From a virus (taxonomy: Duplodnaviria > Heunggongvirae > Uroviricota > Caudoviricetes), in IMG/VR virus record IMGVR_UViG_2698536622_000004: a DNA stretch of 23,161 nucleotides; one strand, given 5' to 3'. Position numbers and translations under genes: made by a program. Of this stretch, positions 3,947-13,657 are shown one piece after another. Under the pieces are notes generated by a model, which made no database searches, was not told where the DNA came from, and was given only the letters and a program-made list of their open reading frames with translations. How positions within the stretch are numbered: position 1 is the stretch's first letter; each line of letters starts with the position of its first letter.

Positions 3947-4800
3947 GCACCATCCTGAAATGGGCGGGAAATAAAACCGCCATAATGTCCGAACTGAAAA
4001 AGCATCTTCCTGCTGGCCCGCGACTGGTTGAACCTTTCGCGGGTTCCTGTGCTGTGATGATGGAGACGGATTACCCCAGCTATCTTGTTGCGGATATTAA
4101 TCCTGATTTAATCAACCTCTATAAAAAGGTTGCTGCTGATTGTGAGGCGTTTATATCTCGTGCCAGAGCTTTATTTGAGGAAGCAAACAGGGAGGTGGCT
4201 TATTACAACATAAGGCAGGAGTTTAATTACTCCACTGAAATTACTGATTTCATGAAAGCGGTATATTTTCTGTATCTCAATCGTCATGGTTACCGTGGGT
4301 TATGTCGCTATAACAAGAGCGGGTATTTCAACATTCCCTACGGTAATTATAAAAATCCGTATTTCCCTGAAAAAGAAATTCGCGCATTTGCAGAGAAAGC
4401 CCAGCGAGCAACGTTTATCTGCGCCAGCTTTGATGAAACGCTGGCGATGCTGCAGGTGGGGGATGTGGTGTATTGCGATCCGCCTTATGACGGTACGTTT
4501 TCCGGTTATCACACTGACGGCTTCACTGAAGATGACCAGTATCACCTGGCATCCGTTCTTGAACATCGGTCATCAGAAGGACATCCCGTCATTGTTTCTA
4601 ACAGTGACACATCCCTGATCCGTTCGCTGTATCGCAATTTTACTCACCACTACATCAAGGCAAAACGCAGCATCGGTGTGGCAGCTGGTGATAGTAAATC
4701 TGCAACAGAAATCATTGCTGTTTCCGGGGCGCGCTGCTGGGTGGGATTTGATCCATCGCGTGGCGTAGATAGTTCTGCTGTGTACGAGGTGCGTGTATGA
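3943..4800 (+). CDS. dam: DNA N6-adenine methyltransferase, Dam (GATC) family, 285 aa
   Basis: AdoMet-binding motif [11 protein letters not shown] and catalytic DPPY; alignable by eye over most of its length with E. coli Dam (KWAG..K, FLYLNR.GY.GLCRYN, VYCDPPY). ATG at 3943 with GGAGGTG upstream; track start 3883 is upstream of this. Confidence 0.85.
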
Positions 4801-7211
4801 GTCATGACGATATGAGCAACTCTAGCGGCTTTAACGAGGCCGCTGCATCATTTTCATGGAACGGCCCGAAAAAGGCCATTAACCCTTATCTGGACCCGGC
4901 GGAAGTTGCGCCGGAGTCTGCACTTTCAAACCTGATCACTCTGTATGTTGCCGATAACGAGCAGGAACAACTGCGCCGCGAGGCACTGAGTGAGCAGGTC
5001 TGGGAGCGTTATTTCTTTAATGAATCCCGTGATCCTGTCCAGCGCGAAATGGAGCAGGATAAGCTCATTAGCCGGGCAAAGCTGGCGCATGAGCAGCAGC
5101 GTTTTAATCCAGACATGGTCATTCTGGCTGACGTCAACGCCCAGCCTTCCCATATCAGCAAGCCGCTGATGCAACGTATTGAATACTTCAGCAGCTTGGG
5201 CAGGCCAAAGGCTTATTCCCGCTATTTGCGTGAGACGATTAAGCCATGTCTGGAACGACTGGAGCATGTACGCGACAGTCAGCTATCCACTTCTTTTCGC
5301 TTTATGGCAAGCCATGAAGGGCTGGACGGCCTGCTGATCCTGCCTGAAATGAGTCAGGATCAGGTAAAACGCCTGTCCACCCTGGTAGCTGCGCATATGA
5401 GCATGTGCCTTGATGCCGCTTGTGGCGATTTATATGCCACCGATGACGTTAAGCCAGAAGAAATCCGCAAGACATGGGAAAAGGTGGCAGCGGAAACCCT
5501 GCGACTGGATGTTATCCCGCCTGCGTTTGAGCAACTCCGCCGGAAAAGAAACCGCCGTAAACCAGTGCCCTATGAACTCATTCCGGGCTCGCTGGCGCGT
5601 ATGCTGTGCGCCGACTGGTGGTATCGGAAATTGTGGAAGATGCGTTGCGAATGGCGGGAAGAGCAGTTGCGTGCTGTCTGCCTGGTCAGCAAAAAAGCAT
5701 CTCCCTATGTCAGCTATGAAGCTGTGATGCATAAACGTGAGCAGCGCCGTAAGTCGCTGGAGTTTTTCCGTTCTCATGAACTGGTGAACGAAGACGGAGA
5801 CGCGCTGGATATGGAAGATGTGGTAAACGCCAGCTGCAGCAACCCGGCGCATCGCCGCAATGAGATGATGGCCTGTGTTAAAGGTCTGGAGCTTATCGCG
5901 GAAATGCGCGGTGACTGCGCCGTTTTCTACACTATTACCTGTCCGTCACGTTTCCATTCCACGCTCAATAACGGCAGACCCAACCCGACCTGGCAAAACG
6001 CGACGGTAAGACAAAGCAGCGATTATCTGGTCGGTATGTTTGCTGCATTTCGTAAGGCGATGCACAAAGCCGGGTTGCGCTGGTATGGCGTGCGGGTGGC
6101 TGAGCCGCATCACGACGGCACAGTTCACTGGCACCTGTTGTGTTTCATGCGCAAAAAAGACCGCCGCGCCATTACTGCATTGTTGCGTAAGTTTGCTATC
6201 CGTGAAGACCGCGAGGAGCTGGGCAATAACACGGGGCCGCGCTTTAAGTCTGAGCTGATTAACCCGCGCAAAGGAACGCCGACAAGCTACATAGCGAAAT
6301 ACATCAGTAAGAACATTGACGGGCGTGGTCTGGCTGGCGAGATCAGCAAGGAAACGGGTAAATCTCTTCGTGATAACGCTGAATACGTGAATGCCTGGGC
6401 GTCTTTGCATCGTGTTCAGCAATTCCGCTTCTTTGGTATTCCGGGGCGTCAGGCTTACCGTGAACTGCGATTGCTGGCTGGTCAGGCGGCAAGGCAGCAG
6501 GGTGACAAAAAAGCAGGTGTGCCGGTACTGGATAACCCGCGCCTTGATGCCATTCTGGCTGCTGCTGATGCTGGTTGTTTTGCCACCTATATCATGAAGC
6601 AGGGAGGTGTACTGGTTCCCCGTAAATATCACCTCATCAGAACCGCTTATGAAATTAACGAAGAGCCGACCGCCTATGGCGATCACGGTATTCGTATTTA
6701 TGGCATCTGGTCACCCATTGCAGAGGGCAAGATCTGCACTCATGCAGTGAAGTGGAAAATGGTTCGTAAGGCCGTTGACGTTCAGGAGGCGGCAGCCGAC
6801 CAGGGCGCTTGCGCCCCTTGGACTCGTGGCAATAACTGTCCCCTTGCTGAAAATTTGAACCAACATGAGAAAGATGAATCAGCAGATGGGGATACCAGAA
6901 CGGACATTACCTGCATGGATGACAAGGAATTGCACGATTACCTGCACAGTATGAGCAAAAAAGAGCGCCGGGAACTGGCAGCAAGATTGCGCCTGGTTAA
7001 ACCGAAACGGCGTAAAGACTACAAACAGCGAATTACAGAGTATCAGCGTCAGCAGCTCGTCTATGAACTGAAGTCCAGAGGATTTGATGGCAGCGAGAAA
7101 GAGGTCGATTTGCTCCTTTGCGGTGGCAGTATTCCGTCAGGAGCAGGCCTGCGTATCTTCTATCGGAACCAGCGTTTGCAGGAAGATGATAAGTGGCGGA
7201 ACCTGTATTAA
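4797..7211 (+). CDS. A: Rolling-circle replication initiation endonuclease (P2 gpA family), 804 aa
   Basis: HUH-type metal-binding motif ([13 protein letters not shown]) and tyrosine-containing segment ([13 protein letters not shown]) typical of gpA-like relaxases. Last gene of the early operon; ATG overlaps the dam stop (ATGA). Confidence 0.9.
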
Positions 7212-7305
7212 TCACGCGGGTTAACAATTCGTGCTCTTAATAATACCAGGCATATCAGGCTGATGAACGTAAAAAAACGTTTTACATCAGTAAGATTATT
7301 ATATA

Positions 7306-7321
7306 CTGTAAATATAAACAG
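7306..7321. promoter_or_regulatory. LexA (SOS) box: CTGT-N8-ACAG within TACTGTAAATATAAACAGTG
   Basis: Matches the enterobacterial LexA consensus TACTGTATATATATACAGTA at the CTGT/ACAG arms with an AT-only spacer. Sits ~45 nt upstream of the small ORF at 7365 and overlaps candidate -10 hexamers (TATACT at 7302-7307). Confidence 0.6.
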
Positions 7322-7364
7322 TGGTTATATGTACAGTATTGCGTATGGTGTTATAGGAGGAAAG

Positions 7365-7553
7365 ATGCAGGACTATTTTTTGGAGTCTTTGAAGCTCCAG
7401 CGCATTGATTTTTTTCTTAAGCTTGTAGCGGCTAGTGAGTGTAGTGATGAAGAGAAGGGGCTAGCTCTGCAGTGGGTTTCTGAATTGACTGATGAGTTGA
7501 TGGCGAAAATTCGAAGCCATGAATACAGTAGGTCGATGGATGTAATCAGTTGA
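7365..7553 (+). CDS. Small acidic protein, 62 aa, downstream of a LexA box; candidate SOS-inducible antirepressor (186 Tum-like position) or other SOS cargo
   Basis: ATG at 7365 with AGGAGG 4 nt upstream. The longer track ORF starting at 7263 would contain the LexA box, so the shorter start is preferred. Followed by a terminator hairpin. Confidence 0.45.
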   Translation: MQDYFLESLKLQRIDFFLKLVAASECSDEEKGLALQWVSELTDELMAKIRSHEYSRSMDVIS

Positions 7554-7620: not shown

Positions 7621-7920
7621 TTAGTTGTTACCCAAAGAGCCGGCCATGGCTGCATATTTAATTTCTTCGCTGGGTATTTCAGGATGTAGTTGAATTTGCC
7701 TGATGATATAGCCAGGAACTTCTTCACTCCACAGTTTCGCCGCGTCCTTACAGACCTTATACGCGAAGTCTCTATTCTCAAAGGCATAGGATTTTCCGTA
7801 TGCATATTGCTGACAGGCATGAACATAAGCTCCGAAGTCGCCGTCTTTATCTGGCAAAGCACATCCAGCTAAGGCTATGATGATTGCTACTAACGTAAAG
7901 GAGAAAGTTATACGTTTCAT
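7621..7920 (-). CDS. Small lipoprotein, 99 aa (lipobox LAGC)
   Basis: N-terminus MKRITFSFTLVAIIIALAGC is a typical lipoprotein signal peptide with lipobox cysteine. AT-rich codon usage unlike the phage core. Confidence 0.6.
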   Translation of the reverse strand: MKRITFSFTLVAIIIALAGCALPDKDGDFGAYVHACQQYAYGKSYAFENRDFAYKVCKDAAKLWSEEVPGYIIRQIQLHPEIPSEEIKYAAMAGSLGNN

Positions 7921-8028: not shown

Positions 8029-8835
8029 TTATTTAGAAAGGTACTTATCTCTAAGTTGATTCAGTCTGTCAGCATCGCGTTCTGAAAACTCGGCGTCACC
8101 ATAGATCGATTTCCCATCTGCGTCTTCAAGGCCAATGACTGTGACGGTAAATATAGCATCAGCCGGAACTTTAAGTTTTCCCCAATCAGAGTATCTATTA
8201 GGGGCTAATTTCCAGTTGGCTTTCTCACCTGGTTCCAGACCTCCAGAAATTTTATAGTTGAAGACGTCAGAGAACCAAGGGACGCTTCTTCCTGGGCTGG
8301 CAATAACTCCTTTGAAGAATACTCTGGCAACCGCTTTGTCTGTTCCGTTTTCAACGCTAATATCCAGAATTGGCTGATCATTGCCGTAATCCTCTTTCTG
8401 GAAATAAAAACGGGAACGTTCGACCTTGAAGGCTTTCATTTTTTCCGCAGCCTGTGTTGCAGAGGTTTGTTTGGCTTCCAGTTCTTTTATTTCTTGCAGA
8501 GCCTGTTCTTTCTCTCTCTTCTCACGCTCAAGGCGAATAGTTTGTGCGTAATTTATAACCTCATCACCAGTTTTACCTTCCAGCGCTGACTTAATTTTTG
8601 TTTCGTAGACGTCCCCAGAAGACGTTCCAGCCTGCATTAGCTCTCTCATGTTGATTTGGCTAAAGGCAACGACTTTAACTGCATCATCAAACTGAGCTTT
8701 TTTATCTGCAGGTAAGGACTCTCTTACTTTTTGAATGGACTCTTTCATCGACTGATCGCTTGATGCATCGATCTTCGGTTTGTCACAAGCAGTAAGCAGC
8801 AGAGCAAAAGCAATTACGCCAGTTAATTTCTTCAT
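8029..8835 (-). CDS. Lipoprotein, 268 aa (lipobox LLTAC), with a Lys/Glu-rich coiled-coil-like segment and a C-terminal domain of unknown function
   Basis: Start placed at the internal ATG (8833-8835) giving MKKLTGVIAFALLLTAC; the track start at 8907 adds 24 residues with no SD. Periplasmic-type composition. Same strand as the 99-aa lipoprotein gene downstream. Confidence 0.6.
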   Translation of the reverse strand: MKKLTGVIAFALLLTACDKPKIDASSDQSMKESIQKVRESLPADKKAQFDDAVKVVAFSQINMRELMQAGTSSGDVYETKIKSALEGKTGDEVINYAQTIRLEREKREKEQALQEIKELEAKQTSATQAAEKMKAFKVERSRFYFQKEDYGNDQPILDISVENGTDKAVARVFFKGVIASPGRSVPWFSDVFNYKISGGLEPGEKANWKLAPNRYSDWGKLKVPADAIFTVTVIGLEDADGKSIYGDAEFSERDADRLNQLRDKYLSK

Positions 8836-9357
8836 ATCCCTATCCCAATCGTAAAAAAACAAGGCTAATCCTAACAGGATTAGCGGGCATGACAAACTCA
8901 TAGCCATATAGGTGTGCTGTATAAATTAGCGGGATGAGAAAGCCTGCACAGACCCTCATGTTGAAACTTGATTTTAGCTCAAAAGAGCTGACACTAAATA
9001 ACTGCGCGGAATAATGCTCCACTTTCGGTTAGCCCTTGGCCCTTGCTGGGTAAGGCGTGGGGCCGTTTTCTTCGCCTGATCCTGCTGTATCTGGCCTACA
9101 GTATGTTGTCCTTACGCGACATGCCACATGTCAGTAAACGGCAGGTGTAGCAGTATTAGACGCAGCTATTTAGTGTGTATTAAGCTGGCTCATATTTATG
9201 ACTGGTTTCAAGGTTTGACCGATTTTCATGTCATGCATGTCTATGCTGCATGAGTTCGCATGATCGTTTGAGGATCGGTTTGGCTAAGACATGCCAGAAC
9301 TGGCGAGCTTTTGCTCATGTCATGCAGGTGCATGAAAACTACTACATAAAGCGGGCA

Positions 9358-9376
9358 GGCGTGGCGGGGATACGAG
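9358..9376. other. Candidate cos (cohesive-end/packaging) site: GGCGTGGCGGGGATACGAG
   Basis: The first 13 nt (GGCGTGGCGGGGA) match my recollection of the 19-nt cohesive ends of 186 (GGCGTGGCGGGGAAAGCAT) and P2 (GGCGAGGCGGGGAAAGCAC). Located in a 590-bp non-coding region between the A-side cargo and the portal gene, where cos lies in P2-like genomes. Confidence 0.4.
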
Positions 9377-9436
9377 CGCGCGCTGTGCTGTGTGGTATAG
9401 GCCTTAATTTAGTATGATTCAATAGTGTCGGGAGCT

Positions 9437-9465
9437 TTGCGCTGATCAGTCCTAAGTTATATGAT
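9437..9465 (+). promoter_or_regulatory. Candidate sigma70 promoter for the GHKL ATPase gene (-35 TTGCGC, 17-nt spacer, -10 TATGAT)
   Basis: Hexamers read directly; about 30 nt upstream of the ATG at 9495. Weak -35. Confidence 0.3.
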
Positions 9466-9494
9466 AAGAAAAATGCATAAAAAAGGTTCGGTTC

Positions 9495-10469
9495 ATGGGG
9501 TTAGGATTAAAAGACGCTATTGTGCATACCGCTGCGTTTCATCAAAAGGAAACTAATGAATTGCAATTGCCAAACAATCATTGGCATCCTGGTTTTATCA
9601 CTGTCTTAGCAGCTTACGTGAATCATCACAAAATTACCGAAGATAACTGTGTTTTGTCATGCCCTGGCTATATGCGAGCTATCAATTTACATGGTGCTTT
9701 ATGGGGAGAGGATCAGTATCAACAGGAACGTGTAAATGTTGGAAGAAATTACAGTTTGGTTACAGCATTAACCAATGTTGAAGCTGTTGACGTTGCCACT
9801 GGTAGTATTAACAGTTGTGTAAGGCAGTTAACATTCCCTGATCGTGATCCGAGAGATTGTCCCAAGGGACTTACAGATCTAACCCATGTTATAGGTGAGC
9901 TTCACGATAACGTTTGGTCGCATGGAAAATCAACGGGTTTTTCTTTTGCACAACGTTCGGCTGTACCCCACACTCAAAAAAAAGAGCACTATTTAGAATT
10001 TTCTTTGGCGGACTGTGGGTTAGGATTTCTCCGAGAATTGCGGCGAGCTGGTATACCCGGAATTGAGACTCACCAGGATGCGATCGCATGGTGTATTCAA
10101 GAGGGACATTCATCTAAGCATGCTGATTTGCAGGATGATTGGGCACAGCAGCTTCCCCAGGACTTTATTGGGGGTAGTGTGTTTGGCCACGGGGTTTCGG
10201 TCAAAGAAAAAGATAATAATCATCAAGGGCTTGGGTTGTATCACTTGATGAAATTGATAAAAACATATAATGGGGAATTGCAACTGGCTTCAGGAAATGT
10301 ATGCTTAGAAGCAATAGGTGATGAAGTGAGCTATACTGAATTACGTACTGAATGGCCGGGTGTAGCAATTTCTTGCCGTTTTAAGATTCATGAACTGGCA
10401 GTCGATAAAGATAGCGAAGAAAATGACCCTCAGCTTATGGAAATAATGCGGGCGTTAGGAGGAGAGTAA
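9495..10469 (+). CDS. Histidine-kinase-like (GHKL/Bergerat-fold) ATPase, 324 aa, with a ~130-aa N-terminal region of unknown function and no DHp/phospho-acceptor domain
   Basis: N-box-like ELHDNVWSH, D/G1-box-like DCGLGF and G2-box-like QGLGLYHL in the expected order. AT-rich. Stop TAA overlaps the next gene's ATG by 1 nt. Confidence 0.7.
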   Translation: MGLGLKDAIVHTAAFHQKETNELQLPNNHWHPGFITVLAAYVNHHKITEDNCVLSCPGYMRAINLHGALWGEDQYQQERVNVGRNYSLVTALTNVEAVDVATGSINSCVRQLTFPDRDPRDCPKGLTDLTHVIGELHDNVWSHGKSTGFSFAQRSAVPHTQKKEHYLEFSLADCGLGFLRELRRAGIPGIETHQDAIAWCIQEGHSSKHADLQDDWAQQLPQDFIGGSVFGHGVSVKEKDNNHQGLGLYHLMKLIKTYNGELQLASGNVCLEAIGDEVSYTELRTEWPGVAISCRFKIHELAVDKDSEENDPQLMEIMRALGGE

Positions 10470-10807
10470 TGAACAAAATCGCATACAAGTTACCCGAGGG
10501 TGACCTGGCTTCGCGCAATCAGGCTATCCCCCAACGACACAAGATTGAAGGGTTCATTAAAGAAGGGTATACCGTAGATTTAGATCTGAGCGGTGTTTAT
10601 TCAATTTCAGAATCATACTCTGATGAAATCTTTGGTGTTTTGGTAGTGAAATTCGGTGTAACCAAAGTTTTGAGTCAAGTTAAGGTTCGCAATGCACCCC
10701 CTTCAATTTTAAAAAGTATTGCAAAAGTGATCCAACGCCGTAGTAATGAAGTAGCATCAAAAAAGGTTCATTCCGTTGGATTTGATGGTTTATACGCCGT
10801 TTGTTAA
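10469..10807 (+). CDS. Small STAS-like protein, 112 aa (DUF4325-like; anti-sigma-factor-antagonist-like fold predicted)
   Basis: Core segment YTVDLDLSGVYSISESYSDEIFGVLVVKFG resembles the DUF4325/STAS-like pattern (hydrophobic-LDF-x-GV...S-x-DE-x-FG). AGGAGGAG SD lies inside the end of the upstream gene, indicating translational coupling. Confidence 0.55.
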   Translation: MNKIAYKLPEGDLASRNQAIPQRHKIEGFIKEGYTVDLDLSGVYSISESYSDEIFGVLVVKFGVTKVLSQVKVRNAPPSILKSIAKVIQRRSNEVASKKVHSVGFDGLYAVC

Positions 10808-10824
10808 TATATGGTTAGTTAGAT

Positions 10825-10850
10825 AAAAGGCGCTGAGATTAGCGCCTTTT
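10825..10850. terminator. Bidirectional intrinsic terminator (AAAAGGCGCT-GAGATT-AGCGCCTTTT)
   Basis: Hairpin with flanking A and T runs, lying between the STAS-like gene stop (10807) and the portal gene stop (10854), which converge on it. Confidence 0.6.
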
Positions 10851-10853
10851 CTT

Positions 10854-11891
10854 TTATTCCTGAACACCTAAAACATAGTCATCAAAACGTATTACTTCTG
10901 CACCCACCCATTCGTTTAGTTCATGTAGTCGCTTCTGTAGTGGCATCAATTCATTGCGAACAAATACAAGACTAGCCTTCTCCACATCCCCAAAACCCCC
11001 AACATTATTTGGCATAATCCCCATCATCTGTGGCGGAACGCGATGTGCTGCCATCATGTCATCGCGGCTGACATTTTTGATATTCAGAAACTCATCCTTC
11101 GCCGCAACTTCTGACAAAGGGATGATCTGAAGGCCGTCCTTTTTGCCGTTAGGCGAGTACATAAACAGGTTGCGGAAGTTGCCTGGACCTTTGGCGCTTT
11201 TCATCGCGTTGCGGAGATTGTTCACATCCTCCTGATTCTGCGCGGCGTCGGTCATGTACATGATGAAGCCTGCATGGCTGCCGTTGATGTAATACTTACG
11301 GCGGAACAGCGTGGCGGACTCATTGAGCAGGGCTGACGGAATGGCAGAAAGATAGCCGGGCAGGCCGTAGATCTCCTGGTTAATGTCCGGTTCCATCAGA
11401 TGAAAGATGCTGCCTTTCGTGAACTGATACGGCTGTGTTGTCATACCGTATTGCACAAACCAGTAGGTATCCAGGTCTAACCCGCGTCGGGTGTATTTTG
11501 CCAGGGCCGGTTCAAGGGCGATAACTTCACCGAAGCGGTTCGTGCGTTTCTCCAGGTAGGCGTTACCAAATACCAGATAGTCCTGCACAAAACGTGAAAA
11601 AGCCTGCTGGCTGAGCAGCGGGTGAGGGATGTAGGTACTGGTCAGAATGTTGCACTTTACTGCAATCGGGGAACTGTGATGCACAGCAGCGCGGAAGGTG
11701 CGCGCCAGTCCGTCAAAGCTGACAGGAGGCTCATACCAGCGATCTGTCTGTACGCATTCCACATAGTCCAGCAGTTCGCGGCGGTCAAGTACTGGAATGG
11801 GATCACCGAAGCTGAATGCTTCGGCTGTAGTCTGGCTTTTAAGCTGGCTCTGTTTCGTCGCCGCAGCGCGGTTCTTCTTACTCTTTCCCAT
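10854..11891 (-). CDS. Q: Capsid portal protein (P2 gpQ family), 345 aa
   Basis: Length and position next to the terminase ATPase gene. ATG start overlaps the P stop (TGATG); the track start at 11894 is TTG. Confidence 0.9.
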   Translation of the reverse strand: MGKSKKNRAAATKQSQLKSQTTAEAFSFGDPIPVLDRRELLDYVECVQTDRWYEPPVSFDGLARTFRAAVHHSSPIAVKCNILTSTYIPHPLLSQQAFSRFVQDYLVFGNAYLEKRTNRFGEVIALEPALAKYTRRGLDLDTYWFVQYGMTTQPYQFTKGSIFHLMEPDINQEIYGLPGYLSAIPSALLNESATLFRRKYYINGSHAGFIMYMTDAAQNQEDVNNLRNAMKSAKGPGNFRNLFMYSPNGKKDGLQIIPLSEVAAKDEFLNIKNVSRDDMMAAHRVPPQMMGIMPNNVGGFGDVEKASLVFVRNELMPLQKRLHELNEWVGAEVIRFDDYVLGVQE

Positions 11892-13657
11892 CAAAAAATC
11901 TCCACAATATTGCTGGTATTGGCGGACTCGCCCTGCAGCGGTTCGTTAAAGAGTGCGTGCATTGTTGCCCAGGCCAGATCGGCATGGCTGGCTTCTTCGC
12001 TGCGGCTGGCTTCATAGGTCGGGCGGTTGCCGCTGGCGGTGGTGGCGCGACGGATTGCCATGAATGACTGCGCAATGTCGGTGTGTCCGGCGTCAAATTC
12101 TAGGCGGCGGTGACTGATAATGTCGTAGGCCTTGAGTACCAGGGCGTTTTTAACGTTGGGGTTGTAGACAAACTCCCGGACGGCAGGAAAGAATGCTTTC
12201 ACGTTCTCGTAAACCCCGTGGCCGACGCCAGTTGAGTCGATGCCGATGTATGTCACGTTGTACTGTTCGGTCAGTTTTTTGATGGCGTCAGCCTGGGCGC
12301 GGAAGTCCATCCCGCGCCACTGGTGACGCTCAAGAATGCGGAACTTACCGCCCGGCACGGCTGGCGGTGCCACCACTACGCATCCGGCGCTGTCGCCGTT
12401 TTGCGTACCTTTTGCCGGGTCATAACCGATCCACACTTCGCGCCAGCCAAAGGGGCGCAGAGCCAGTGCATGAAAGTCGGTCCAGACTTCCCAGCTGTCC
12501 ACCATGCACGCCTGCAGCTCGCTGAGCGGGAACACGGACGCGAGATCGTCCACGAACTCGCACATCAGCAGGTTCTGGTATTCGTCCGGGCTGTACTCCA
12601 TGCGCAACTGGTCAAGGTCGAACAGGTTACAGCCGCCGCGCACCGCATCTTCCACGGTGACTATCTGGCGGTATTGCCCGTCTGCGCACAGCAGGCCGGG
12701 GGCCAGATTGCTGTGGGACAGGTCGATGTCCACCTTATCGGCTTTGTTGCGCCCACGGTTGAACAGCGCACCGGACCAGAACGGATAAGCACTGTGTGTC
12801 AGGCTGGATGGCGTGGAAAAATAGGTTTGTCGCCATTTTTTGTGAATAGCCATACCGGAAGCCACTTTGCGCAGCTCCTGGAATTTTGGTATCCAGAAAT
12901 ATTCATCCAGATACAGGTTGCCGTGATAACTCTGGGCAGTGCGGGCATTGGTGCCGAGGAAGTAAAGCGTGGCCCCGTTGGGAAGCACCATCGGATCGCC
13001 TTTCAGCTCCACCTCCACTTCTTTGGCGAAGTCGATGATGTACTGTTTAAAGACGTGGGCCTGTGCCTTACTGGCGGAAAGGAAAATCTGGTTACGTCCG
13101 GTAAGCAGGGCGTCAATCAGGGCTTCACGGGCAAAGTAAAAGGTCGCGCCGATCTGGCGTGACTTCAGCAGGTTGCGGATGCGGTTGGTTTTTCCGGCTT
13201 CCCACCAGTGGCGCTGGTAGTTGAACATGGAGGAATGGAAAATTTCTTCCAGCTTCTCAATCTGTTCATCGGTGAAAACGTTCTTTTCCGGCTGACGGCG
13301 CGGGCTTTTGTTGCGGTTGGCGACGTTAGGGTTTAAGTCGGCTTCGTTGCCGCCATTGTTAAACTTGCCGATCCGCGCGTGGCGTTCCGACTGGCGCGCC
13401 AGCAGGTCAATCTCTTTGAAATCTTTCCCTTCTTTGTGCTCCTTCATGATGAGCTGGCAGTAGCGTGCGGCGGTGGTGAGCTGCATCTGATCCAGCGGCC
13501 CATAATCACCCCACTTGTCGCGTTTTTTCCAGCTGTGAACGGTTGCAACTTTCTCGCCCAGCATTTCAGCAATGCGGGCTACGCGGTATCCCTGAAAGTA
13601 CAGCAGCATGGCCTGCCGACGGGGATCGAGATCTGCGGGTGTCAGTGTGGTGTTCAT
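11891..13657 (-). CDS. P: Terminase large (ATPase) subunit (P2 gpP family), 588 aa
   Basis: Large ORF divergent from the O-N-M-L capsid operon, as in P2. Coordinates taken from the ORF track; my own base count near the start codon was off by one against the track and I could not resolve it by eye. Confidence 0.85.
   Translation of the reverse strand: MNTTLTPADLDPRRQAMLLYFQGYRVARIAEMLGEKVATVHSWKKRDKWGDYGPLDQMQLTTAARYCQLIMKEHKEGKDFKEIDLLARQSERHARIGKFNNGGNEADLNPNVANRNKSPRRQPEKNVFTDEQIEKLEEIFHSSMFNYQRHWWEAGKTNRIRNLLKSRQIGATFYFAREALIDALLTGRNQIFLSASKAQAHVFKQYIIDFAKEVEVELKGDPMVLPNGATLYFLGTNARTAQSYHGNLYLDEYFWIPKFQELRKVASGMAIHKKWRQTYFSTPSSLTHSAYPFWSGALFNRGRNKADKVDIDLSHSNLAPGLLCADGQYRQIVTVEDAVRGGCNLFDLDQLRMEYSPDEYQNLLMCEFVDDLASVFPLSELQACMVDSWEVWTDFHALALRPFGWREVWIGYDPAKGTQNGDSAGCVVVAPPAVPGGKFRILERHQWRGMDFRAQADAIKKLTEQYNVTYIGIDSTGVGHGVYENVKAFFPAVREFVYNPNVKNALVLKAYDIISHRRLEFDAGHTDIAQSFMAIRRATTASGNRPTYEASRSEEASHADLAWATMHALFNEPLQGESANTSNIVEIF

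What the first reader, a model, noticed from the sequence alone, without database searches (positions are those of the whole stretch)
9437..10850. Two-gene GHKL-ATPase + STAS-like cassette between the putative cos site and the portal gene: candidate undescribed defence or partner-switching module
A 324-aa protein with ordered N, G1 and G2 Bergerat-fold ATPase boxes but no histidine-kinase DHp domain is translationally coupled (TAATG overlap, SD inside the upstream gene) to a 112-aa protein with a STAS/DUF4325-like core. The pair resembles an anti-sigma kinase and its STAS antagonist (RsbW/RsbV, SpoIIAB/SpoIIAA), yet no sigma factor is adjacent and it sits in AT-rich cargo DNA at a P2-family accessory locus where anti-phage genes are typically carried. 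I do not recognise this as a named defence system. The ~130-aa N-terminal region of the ATPase has no motif I can assign and could be the sensor or effector part.
Basis: partly seen in the sequence, partly recalled or inferred. Interest (0 to 1): 0.85.

Follow-up and report, generated by a model that had tools for sequence, protein, structure and literature searches.

The report
Effector-less kinase–STAS pair in prophage hotspot
A P2/186-like prophage carries, in its known anti-phage cargo hotspot, a two-gene operon for an anti-sigma-type serine kinase and its small STAS-domain partner; it is a distant relative of the recently described CapK/CapS and VapK/VapS DNA-damage phospho-switches but has no attached toxin or DNA-binding output, so what it controls is unknown.

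Summary

The pair is not wholly undescribed. Chambers et al. (EMBO J 2026) characterised CapK/CapS and VapK/VapS/VapC, ssDNA-activated kinase–STAS switches. A and B are remote homologues of VapK and VapS (profile-profile E 1.7e-7; VapS is B's best PDB match). They form a separate family with no VapC toxin, no wHTH on B, an unrecognisable N-terminal domain and a 25-30-residue lid insertion. Rousset et al. 2022 catalogued this exact pair in the P2 hotspot but did not test it.

Verdict: a new variant of a known kind. Its output and its defence role remain unproven.

The parts
9495..10469 (+). Gene A: 324-aa SpoIIAB/VapK-type GHKL serine-kinase-like protein. It has a conserved N-terminal domain (~1-120), then a Bergerat ATP-binding domain with N-box E135/N139, G1 D173xGxG, a family-specific lid insertion (~207-241) and G2 G245-L-G247.
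10469..10807 (+). Gene B: 112-aa STAS-like (DUF4325) protein. It has a STAS core (1-77), a long basic C-terminal helix (78-103) and a variable tail. The candidate phospho-acceptor is Ser47 (Ser49 second); R16, R23, D52 and R91 are invariant or nearly so.
10459..10471 (+). Translational-coupling junction: SD GGAGGAG inside A, with TAATG stop/start overlap.
   Evidence: Sequence; the junction overlaps or is within 10 nt in 37 of 44 related loci.
10825..10850 (.). Intrinsic-terminator-like stem-loop (11 pairs) flanked by A- and T-runs, between B and the convergent portal gene. It ends the two-gene operon.
   Evidence: sequence.
9385..9494 (+). AT-rich upstream region that presumably holds the cassette's own promoter. 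No consensus sigma-70 site passes the scan, so the promoter is not located.
9358..9376 (.). cos-like sequence GGCGTGGCGGGGATACGAG, marking the left boundary of the cargo slot. It is context, not part of the module.
   Evidence: Sequence; block 9234-9385 conserved in P2-like phages. The comparison with the 186/P2 cohesive end is from memory.

Best explanation
The cassette is a self-contained, mobile two-gene kinase–substrate phospho-switch of the CapK/VapK–CapS/VapS superfamily, carried as accessory cargo in the cos-proximal defence hotspot of a P2/186-like prophage.

Shown by the analysis: protein A has an intact anti-sigma-type (SpoIIAB/RsbW/VapK-like) GHKL ATP-binding kinase domain. Protein B is a single STAS domain of Pfam family DUF4325, the same family as VapS. 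The two are always encoded together, are usually translationally coupled, and are occasionally fused, so they act as a complex.

Inferred by homology: A binds B and transfers the ATP gamma-phosphate to the hydroxyl at position 47, at the N-cap of helix α2 of B. This is the same mechanism by which SpoIIAB phosphorylates SpoIIAA-Ser58, CapK phosphorylates CapS-Ser54 and VapK phosphorylates VapS-Ser48. Phosphorylation then changes what B, or the released kinase, binds.

Inferred more weakly: the kinase is switched on by an infection or damage signal, most likely single-stranded DNA as for CapK. The output acts in trans on a host or phage target, because the operon carries no toxin or DNA-binding domain. 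The net effect is protection of the lysogen against other phages or a stress response. The identity of the output is not known.
Against: There is no experimental data on this family. Homology to VapK and VapS is remote (22-26% identity), and the two families are cleanly separable. The operon has no effector: no VapC homologue in any of 45 loci or anywhere in the window, no wHTH on B, and no conserved third gene. The residue strictly co-linear with VapS Ser48 is Glu48 in most B members, so the acceptor assignment to Ser47 requires a one-residue shift. A's N-terminal ~55 residues show no detectable similarity to the STAS domain of VapK that forms half of the proposed ssDNA groove, so ssDNA sensing is unsupported for this family. 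Only about a third of hotspot cassettes cloned by Rousset et al. showed defence.
Confidence: 0.6

Rival explanations
1. Classical partner-switching anti-sigma module. A sequesters a host sigma factor or RNA polymerase, as SpoIIAB and RsbW do, and unphosphorylated B displaces it. The prophage would use this to reprogramme or shut down host transcription.
For: The closest solved structures to A are anti-sigma factors, and those to B include their antagonists.
Against: No sigma-factor family is among the 25 most frequent Pfam families in the neighbouring ORFs of 23 loci, which is all the tool lists. The pair occurs in very different hosts, from Enterobacterales to Neisseria and Planctomycetes. 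No PP2C phosphatase accompanies it. The nearer sequence relatives CapK and VapK do not act through sigma factors (PMC13373217).
Confidence: 0.12
2. Kinase-toxin/antitoxin (addiction or abortive-infection) pair. A is itself the effector, phosphorylating essential host or phage proteins or burning ATP. B is a pseudo-substrate inhibitor that is inactivated by phosphorylation or proteolysis.
For: It is a two-gene, translationally coupled module on mobile elements. A has family-specific conserved features not needed merely to phosphorylate B: the lid insertion with invariant K208, D214, Q218, P221 and G226, and the conserved N-terminal domain. B has a variable C-terminal tail. No other effector is present.
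Against: There is no toxicity data, and the gene order (enzyme first) is atypical for type II TA systems. In VapKSC the kinase is the sensor, not the toxin.
Confidence: 0.18
3. Degenerate remnant of a vapKSC or capKS locus that has lost its toxin or regulated operon and has no function of its own.
For: It is homologous to VapK and VapS but lacks VapC.
Against: All 108 untruncated loci lack VapC. The family is separate from VapK: every one of 143 representatives scores higher on the A profile than on the VapK profile. Catalytic and acceptor residues are invariant across classes of bacteria. This is purifying selection on a two-gene unit, not decay.
Confidence: 0.02
4. Fragment of an ordinary two-component sensor histidine kinase, or a phage structural or packaging protein.
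For: Weak HATPase_c hit; some relatives are auto-annotated 'sensor histidine kinase'.
Confidence: 0.01

Closest known systems
VapKSC (VapK kinase / VapS STAS antitoxin / VapC PIN toxin), Chambers et al., EMBO J 2026 (PMC13373217); VapS-VapC structure PDB 9Z7O
   Same: A GHKL kinase of the anti-sigma type is followed immediately by a ~112-116-aa DUF4325 STAS protein with a conserved Ser/Thr at the start of helix α2 and a C-terminal helix. The WxCQxGN[ST][ST] lid motif and the GLGL G2 box are shared, and B and VapS are co-linear (D39, S41, V43, G56, L58, K61, F62). Both occur on mobile elements or near prophages.
   Different: There is no VapC/PIN gene in any locus. Identity is only 22-26% and the families are separable. 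A's N-terminal domain is shorter and not recognisably STAS. A has a 25-30-residue conserved ATP-lid insertion. The invariant hydroxyl is at position 47, not 48, and position 48 is mostly Glu. B's C-terminal tail is not conserved.
CapK/CapS (HTH-STAS-GHKL kinase plus STAS-wHTH repressor controlling CBASS, Bub, Thoeris and other operons), same paper
   Same: The logic is the same: a kinase phosphorylates a STAS partner, the pair is always adjacent with the kinase first, and the context is immune or mobile.
   Different: The match to CapK is very weak (hhalign E 0.005, probability 7%). A has no HTH, B has no wHTH DNA-binding domain, and there is no downstream operon to regulate; the next gene is usually convergent.
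SpoIIAB/SpoIIAA and RsbW/RsbV anti-sigma partner-switching pairs
   Same: These are the best structural matches for both proteins: a serine-kinase GHKL domain plus a single-domain STAS substrate.
   Different: There is no cognate sigma factor or PP2C phosphatase. A carries an extra ~120-residue N-terminal domain and a lid insertion. There is no significant sequence similarity: the A profile finds nothing in the PDB at E≤1.
SiaB/SiaC (Pseudomonas kinase and STAS-like DUF1987 substrate)
   Different: SiaABCD includes a PP2C phosphatase and a diguanylate cyclase output, and its STAS-like family is different.

Membership tests
GHKL / Bergerat-fold ATP-binding superfamily | N-box (ExxxN), G1 (DxGxG) and G2 (GxxGxG-like) motifs in order on a Bergerat α/β sandwich | tested here: met
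Anti-sigma-factor-type serine kinases (SpoIIAB/RsbW class) | Stand-alone GHKL kinase domain without DHp, structurally closest to SpoIIAB/RsbW | tested here: met
Anti-sigma-factor-type serine kinases (SpoIIAB/RsbW class) | Binds and inhibits a cognate sigma factor, usually encoded nearby | tested here: not met
   No sigma-factor family is among the 25 most frequent Pfam families in the neighbouring ORFs of 23 loci, the only ones the tool lists, and there is none next to the cassette in the window. Binding itself is not testable here.
STAS domain / Pfam DUF4325 | β-α STAS fold; score above the Pfam gathering threshold | tested here: met
STAS phospho-substrates (SpoIIAA/RsbV/CapS/VapS type) | Absolutely conserved Ser/Thr at the N-terminus of helix α2 | tested here: met
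   Position 47 is S in 105 and T in 1 of 106 members and is the N-cap of helix 48-62. Caveat: it lies one residue before the position co-linear with VapS Ser48.
STAS phospho-substrates (SpoIIAA/RsbV/CapS/VapS type) | Actually phosphorylated by the cognate kinase | not testable with these tools
   Needs Phos-tag, mass spectrometry or an in vitro kinase assay.
VapKSC toxin-antitoxin-like defence system | VapK-family kinase (STAS + GHKL) | tested here: inconclusive
   The kinase domain is homologous (E 1.7e-7) but belongs to a separate family.
VapKSC toxin-antitoxin-like defence system | VapS-like DUF4325 protein immediately downstream of the kinase | tested here: met
VapKSC toxin-antitoxin-like defence system | VapC-like PIN toxin as third gene of the operon | tested here: not met
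   phmmer with VapC finds nothing at E≤10 in all ORFs of 45 loci or in the six-frame window. The gene after B is the convergent portal gene.
CapK/CapS transcriptional controller | wHTH DNA-binding domain on the STAS protein, HTH on the kinase, and a regulated operon downstream | tested here: not met
   B is 112 aa with only a STAS core plus one helix. There is no HTH Pfam hit on A or B. Only 13 of 45 loci have any same-strand ORF after B, and none is conserved.
Named anti-phage defence systems (PADLOC-DB v2) | Significant match to a system's profile | tested here: not met
   A: only PDC-M65A at E 0.007, with no stretch passing on its own. B: a local match to a segment of a DrmA model at E 4.7e-6. 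NCBIfam: none.
P2-like phage cos-proximal defence hotspot cargo (Rousset et al. 2022) | Located between replication gene gpA and portal gene gpQ, next to cos | tested here: met
   gpA 4797-7211 and portal 10854-11894; definition of the hotspot; this exact pair is listed in the paper's P2 table.

The most novel reading that the evidence does not exclude
The pair is a complete, autonomous anti-phage system with no separate effector. On sensing infection, the kinase phosphorylates and releases its STAS gatekeeper and then acts itself as the effector. It would use its family-specific ATP-lid insertion and N-terminal domain to phosphorylate or sequester a universally conserved host or phage target. 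This would be a minimal 'kinase-as-effector' branch of the CapK/VapK superfamily, and its sensor may not be ssDNA.
Probability: 0.2. Interest if true: 0.75.

Novelty: new variant of a known kind. Interest (0 to 1): 0.58.

Why it matters
CapK/CapS and VapKSC showed in 2026 that anti-sigma-like kinase–STAS pairs serve as DNA-damage sensors wired to different immune outputs. This family is a third, widespread branch: about 160-250 clusters at 50% identity, found in Gammaproteobacteria, Betaproteobacteria and beyond, and in at least 64 viral contigs. Its sensor–transducer pair travels alone, with no toxin, no DNA-binding domain and no regulated operon. If it protects against phages, it would show either that the kinase can be the effector or that a mobile two-gene sensor can plug into a host-encoded output. 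Both would extend the modularity principle for bacterial immunity. It also gives a function-level annotation to phrog_3364 and to part of Pfam DUF4325, which are now 'hypothetical' in every genome. Finally, it points to a testable cassette from the P2 hotspot catalogue that has gone untested since 2022.

Tried and rejected
- **Sequence profile libraries for A.** Pfam gave only a sub-threshold HATPase_c hit, NCBIfam gave nothing, and PADLOC gave no real hit. Assignment needed structure prediction.
- **A-family profile against PDB sequences.** No hit at E≤1.
- **Is A's N-terminal domain a STAS domain?** Local hhalign of residues 1-125 against the VapK N-terminus and against the B family gave E 0.41 for both. 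This is unresolved because the fold-search jobs were exhausted.
- **Hidden third gene.** VapC searches in all loci and in the window found nothing. Pfam scans of 10 same-strand downstream ORFs found nothing except an independent DUF4041-T5orf172 neighbour in the two Billgrantia loci.
- **Conserved neighbour or sigma factor.** Pooled Pfam and PADLOC scans of 140 flanking ORFs showed only integrases, phage genes and scattered restriction-modification genes among the families listed.
- **Other candidate identities.** WonAB (ABC ATPase plus PD-(D/E)xK nuclease) and Ambrosia (histidine kinase/REC/RM) are unrelated.
- **Literature.** Searches for 'DUF4325' and for the RefSeq accessions in main texts gave nothing relevant. 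The 2026 NAR P2/P4 paper does not mention STAS, GHKL or DUF4325, and none of its supplements are held.
- **Promoter.** No sigma-70 promoter passed the scan upstream of A.
- **ssDNA-contact residue.** VapK 'F54', the ssDNA-contact residue in the paper, could not be mapped. The Table S2 sequence has Phe at positions 49 and 57 but not 54, so conservation of the ssDNA site in A was not assessed.

Full report
**1. The observation.**

The window is a P2/186-like prophage. The closest E. coli genomes show the order integrase, CI, CII, Fil, gpA replication endonuclease, DinI-like, cassette, portal, terminase, capsid.

The junction reads GGAGGAGAGTAATGAAC, so a Shine-Dalgarno sequence lies inside A, and A's TAA overlaps B's ATG by one base. 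An 11-pair stem-loop flanked by A- and T-runs (10825-10850) separates B from the convergent portal gene at 10854-11894.

GC is 42.5% for A and 39.8% for B, against 51-57% for the portal and terminase genes. Upstream, 9234-9385 is conserved in 43 P2-like phage records. That block contains GGCGTGGCGGGGA, which matches the start of the 186 cohesive end as I remember it. No sigma-70 consensus promoter passed the scan upstream of A.

The whole cassette occurs in 19 of 5,426 complete E. coli genomes, always next to a portal gene.

**2. What the proteins are.**

*Sequence libraries.* These say little about A:
- Pfam HATPase_c scores 13.6 bits, below the 26.4 cut-off.
- NCBIfam gives nothing.
- PADLOC gives no meaningful hit.
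- A belongs to an uncharacterised phage family, phrog_3364 (E 1.9e-66).

B passes Pfam's threshold for DUF4325, 'STAS-like domain of unknown function' (36.8 bits against 23).

*Conservation in A.* An alignment of 33 A homologues down to 41% identity shows several conserved features:
- the N-box GELHDNVWSHG;
- the G1 box D173xGxGF;
- the G2 box H243-QGLGL;
- a WCIxEGNSxK lid segment;
- a conserved N-terminal region (P32, G33, Y59, W70, R79, G83, Y86).

**3. The pair is an obligate unit.**

- In 46 loci from one-genome-per-species contigs, a B homologue lies immediately downstream on the same strand in 45. These span Enterobacterales, Pseudomonas, Acinetobacter, Marinobacter, Halomonadaceae, Burkholderiales, Methylococcales, Neisseria, Kuenenia and Pirellulales. 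The exception ends 31 bases after A.
- In 64 IMG/VR viral contigs the figure is 63, and the exception is again cut by the contig end.
- The A/B junction overlaps or lies within 10 nt in 37 of 44 loci.
- One representative, P0339 (397 aa), is an in-frame A-B fusion.
- phrog_5816 (441 positions) is hit by both A and B.

*Nothing else is conserved with the pair:*
- Only 13 of 45 loci have any same-strand ORF within 150 bp after B. Those ORFs are unrelated to one another and lack Pfam domains. The exception is a DUF4041-T5orf172 gene in the two Billgrantia loci, which is probably an independent neighbour.
- Pooled scans of 140 flanking ORFs show integrases (the most frequent), repressors, terminase and portal genes, resolvases, transposases, DUF3987 and scattered type I/II/III restriction-modification genes. 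No sigma-factor family is among the 25 most frequent families, which is all the tool lists.
- Individual contexts are mobile elements. In Pseudomonas it is an AlpA/DUF927/Toprim satellite-like element, in Acinetobacter an integrase plus resolvase islet, and in Vibrio a phage integrase next door.
- 39 of the 64 viral contigs have the P2 arrangement with a convergent portal gene.

**4. Relation to what is known.**

*The 2026 paper.* A full-text search found Chambers et al., EMBO J 2026 (PMC13373217). It describes two related systems:
[quoted passage not shown] It phosphorylates Ser54 of CapS (STAS-wHTH), which releases CapS from DNA and de-represses CBASS, Bub, Thoeris and other operons.
- In vapKSC, VapK (STAS-GHKL) is proposed to phosphorylate Ser48 of VapS. 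VapS is 116 aa, a STAS domain plus a C-terminal helix, and phosphorylation frees the PIN toxin VapC. The operon gives about 2 logs of protection against phage Bas42.

*Sequence comparisons*, using the sequences in the paper's Appendix Table S2:

| Comparison | Result |
|---|---|
| A family vs VapK | E 3.7e-5, 26% identity over the kinase domain; lid motif and GLGL box aligned |
| A family vs a 28-member VapK family profile | probability 93.8%, E 1.7e-7, 179 columns |
| B family vs VapS | E 3.5e-5 |
| B profile vs the whole PDB | best hit is VapS (9Z7O) |
| A family vs CapK | E 0.005, probability 7% |

VapS is itself DUF4325 (62.5 bits). An E. coli vapKSC locus reads kinase (297 aa), DUF4325 (116 aa), PIN (203 aa).

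*The hotspot catalogue.* Rousset et al. 2022 define the P2 hotspot as the cos-proximal gpA-gpQ interval. Their supplementary table lists this very pair, WP_004011553 + WP_032175284, as 'hypothetical + DUF4325'. DUF4325 does not appear in the file that lists the systems they tested.

**5. How this family differs from VapK/VapS and CapK/CapS.**

- There is no VapC. phmmer at E≤10 finds nothing in any ORF of 45 loci or in the six-frame window.
- B has no wHTH domain, and there is no downstream operon to regulate.
- The families are separable. All 143 representatives from an exhaustive search score higher on the A profile than on the VapK profile (VapK profile at most 41 bits). VapK members score at most 24.6 bits on the A profile. 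Family A comprises about 160 clusters at E≤1e-30 and 249 at E≤1e-10, out of 1.84 billion representatives.
- The G1-to-G2 spacing is 60-69 residues in most of family A against 35-44 in VapK. This is a conserved lid insertion of 25-30 residues with invariant K208, D214, Q218, P221 and G226.
- The first ~55 residues of A show no detectable similarity to the VapK STAS domain (E 0.41). Only the following GY..aiGL..aLW…R79 segment aligns with VapK's QNGF…PYR segment.
- B and VapS are strictly co-linear, yet VapS Ser48 aligns with B position 48. That position is Glu in 85 of 106 members and otherwise G, D, S, A, H, T or P. The always-hydroxylated residue is position 47 (S in 105, T in 1), with Ser49 in 103 of 106.

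Ser47 is the N-cap of helix α2 in the model, so I take it as the likely acceptor. A one-residue register shift, or a natural acidic residue at the canonical site, cannot be resolved here.

**6. Mechanism.**

*Shown:* A has an intact SpoIIAB/VapK-type ATP-binding kinase fold. B is a DUF4325 STAS protein. The two are obligately coupled and occasionally fused. They are carried on phages, satellites and islands, here in a recognised defence hotspot.

*Inferred from homology:* A phosphorylates B at Ser47, and phosphorylation toggles a protein–protein interaction.

*Weakly inferred:* the trigger is ssDNA or infection-associated damage, as for CapK. The N-terminal half of the proposed ssDNA groove is not recognisably conserved in A, so this step is the least secure.

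*Unknown:* the output. The operon carries no effector, so there are three options:
- B, or phosphorylated B, acts on a trans-encoded target.
- The released kinase is itself the effector. This would explain its family-specific conserved lid insertion and N-terminal domain.
- A sequesters a sigma factor in the SpoIIAB manner.

I give 0.6 to the general phospho-switch model and about 0.5 to an anti-phage role. A defence role has precedent in VapKSC and in the hotspot location. However, only about a third of the hotspot cassettes cloned by Rousset et al. were active on their panel.

**7. Rivals.**

- **Anti-sigma partner switching (0.12).** It is supported only by fold similarity and is contradicted by the absence of sigma factors and phosphatases and by the broad host range.
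- **Kinase-toxin/antitoxin (0.18).** It is compatible with the data and overlaps with the 'novel case'.
- **Decayed vapKSC (0.02).** It is refuted by the family-wide two-gene architecture under purifying selection.

**8. Novelty and verdict.**

This is not a categorically new system. It is a distinct, effector-less branch of the kinase–STAS phospho-switch superfamily that was first characterised in 2026. The exact cassette was catalogued but not tested in 2022. The family is unnamed, annotated 'hypothetical protein' everywhere, and absent from PADLOC and NCBIfam. I class it as a new variant of a known kind, with interest 0.58. It is a well-defined, cloneable candidate whose main open question, what a sensor–transducer pair does without an effector, is directly testable.

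Noticed in passing
window 8029-8907 (-): A second cargo gene in the same gpA-gpQ hotspot. It is a 292-aa ORF matching Pfam DUF6694 (E 4.3e-22) with a lipoprotein-like 'LLLTAC' signal after an internal Met, and its GC is 42.9%. It is absent from the closest E. coli genomes that carry the A-B cassette, so it is an independent insertion.
   Followed up: partly
window 9234-9385 (cos-like core 9358-9376): This block is conserved at 80-95% identity in 43 P2-like phage records (Klebsiella, Escherichia, Salmonella, Yersinia, Erwinia). It contains GGCGTGGCGGGGATACGAG, which resembles the 186/P2 cohesive end as recalled from memory.
   Followed up: partly
P0339 (397 aa, from the exhaustive representative search): A natural in-frame fusion of an A-type kinase (residues 1-290) with a B-type DUF4325 domain (residues 298-387, 74.5 bits).
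   Followed up: yes
L044 6166-7281 (+), Succinivibrio MAG: One ORF combines the C-terminal half of an A-like kinase, a DUF4325 domain and a SWIM zinc finger. It could be a real variant architecture or an assembly or frameshift artefact.
   Followed up: no
PADLOC model PDLC02567 (DrmA), profile positions 314-397: B matches a segment of a DISARM DrmA model (E 4.7e-6). This suggests that some DrmA proteins contain a DUF4325/STAS-like insert.
   Followed up: no
Rousset et al. 2022 supplementary tables (PMC9122126, files 2 and 6); phrog_5816: The P4-satellite hotspot catalogue lists a fused 'HATPase_c | DUF4325' protein (9 occurrences). DUF4325 appears 21 times in the P2 hotspot file. phrog_5816 (441 positions) is hit by both A and B. 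GHKL-DUF4325 combinations therefore recur as phage and satellite cargo in several architectures.
   Followed up: partly
L036 and L039 9426-10970 (+), Billgrantia: A DUF4041 + T5orf172/MUG113 (GIY-YIG-like) protein is encoded 137 bp downstream of B on the same strand. It is probably a separate defence-type gene, which hints at a defence-island context.
   Followed up: partly
B family C-termini (alignment A2, columns ~101-140): Enterobacterial B proteins end in a variable tail with a hydrophobic, often Cys- or Ala-terminal motif (…AVC, …ATC, …WASA). Pseudomonas and Acinetobacter members stop right after the conserved RR motif. The tail is therefore not part of the conserved core, unlike the functionally required C-terminus of VapS.
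   Followed up: no
PMC13373217 Appendix Table S2 compared with the main text: The paper's ssDNA-contact residue 'VapK F54' does not fall on a Phe in the tabulated VapK sequence, where Phe is at positions 49 and 57. By my count CapK 'W68' falls at position 67. These are numbering or text-extraction offsets, and they prevented mapping those residues onto A.
   Followed up: no
window 7263-7553 (+) and 7621-7920 (-): Two ~96-99-aa ORFs between gpA and the DUF6694 gene have no Pfam match. The corresponding region of related prophages carries a small hypothetical gene and a DinI-like gene.
   Followed up: no
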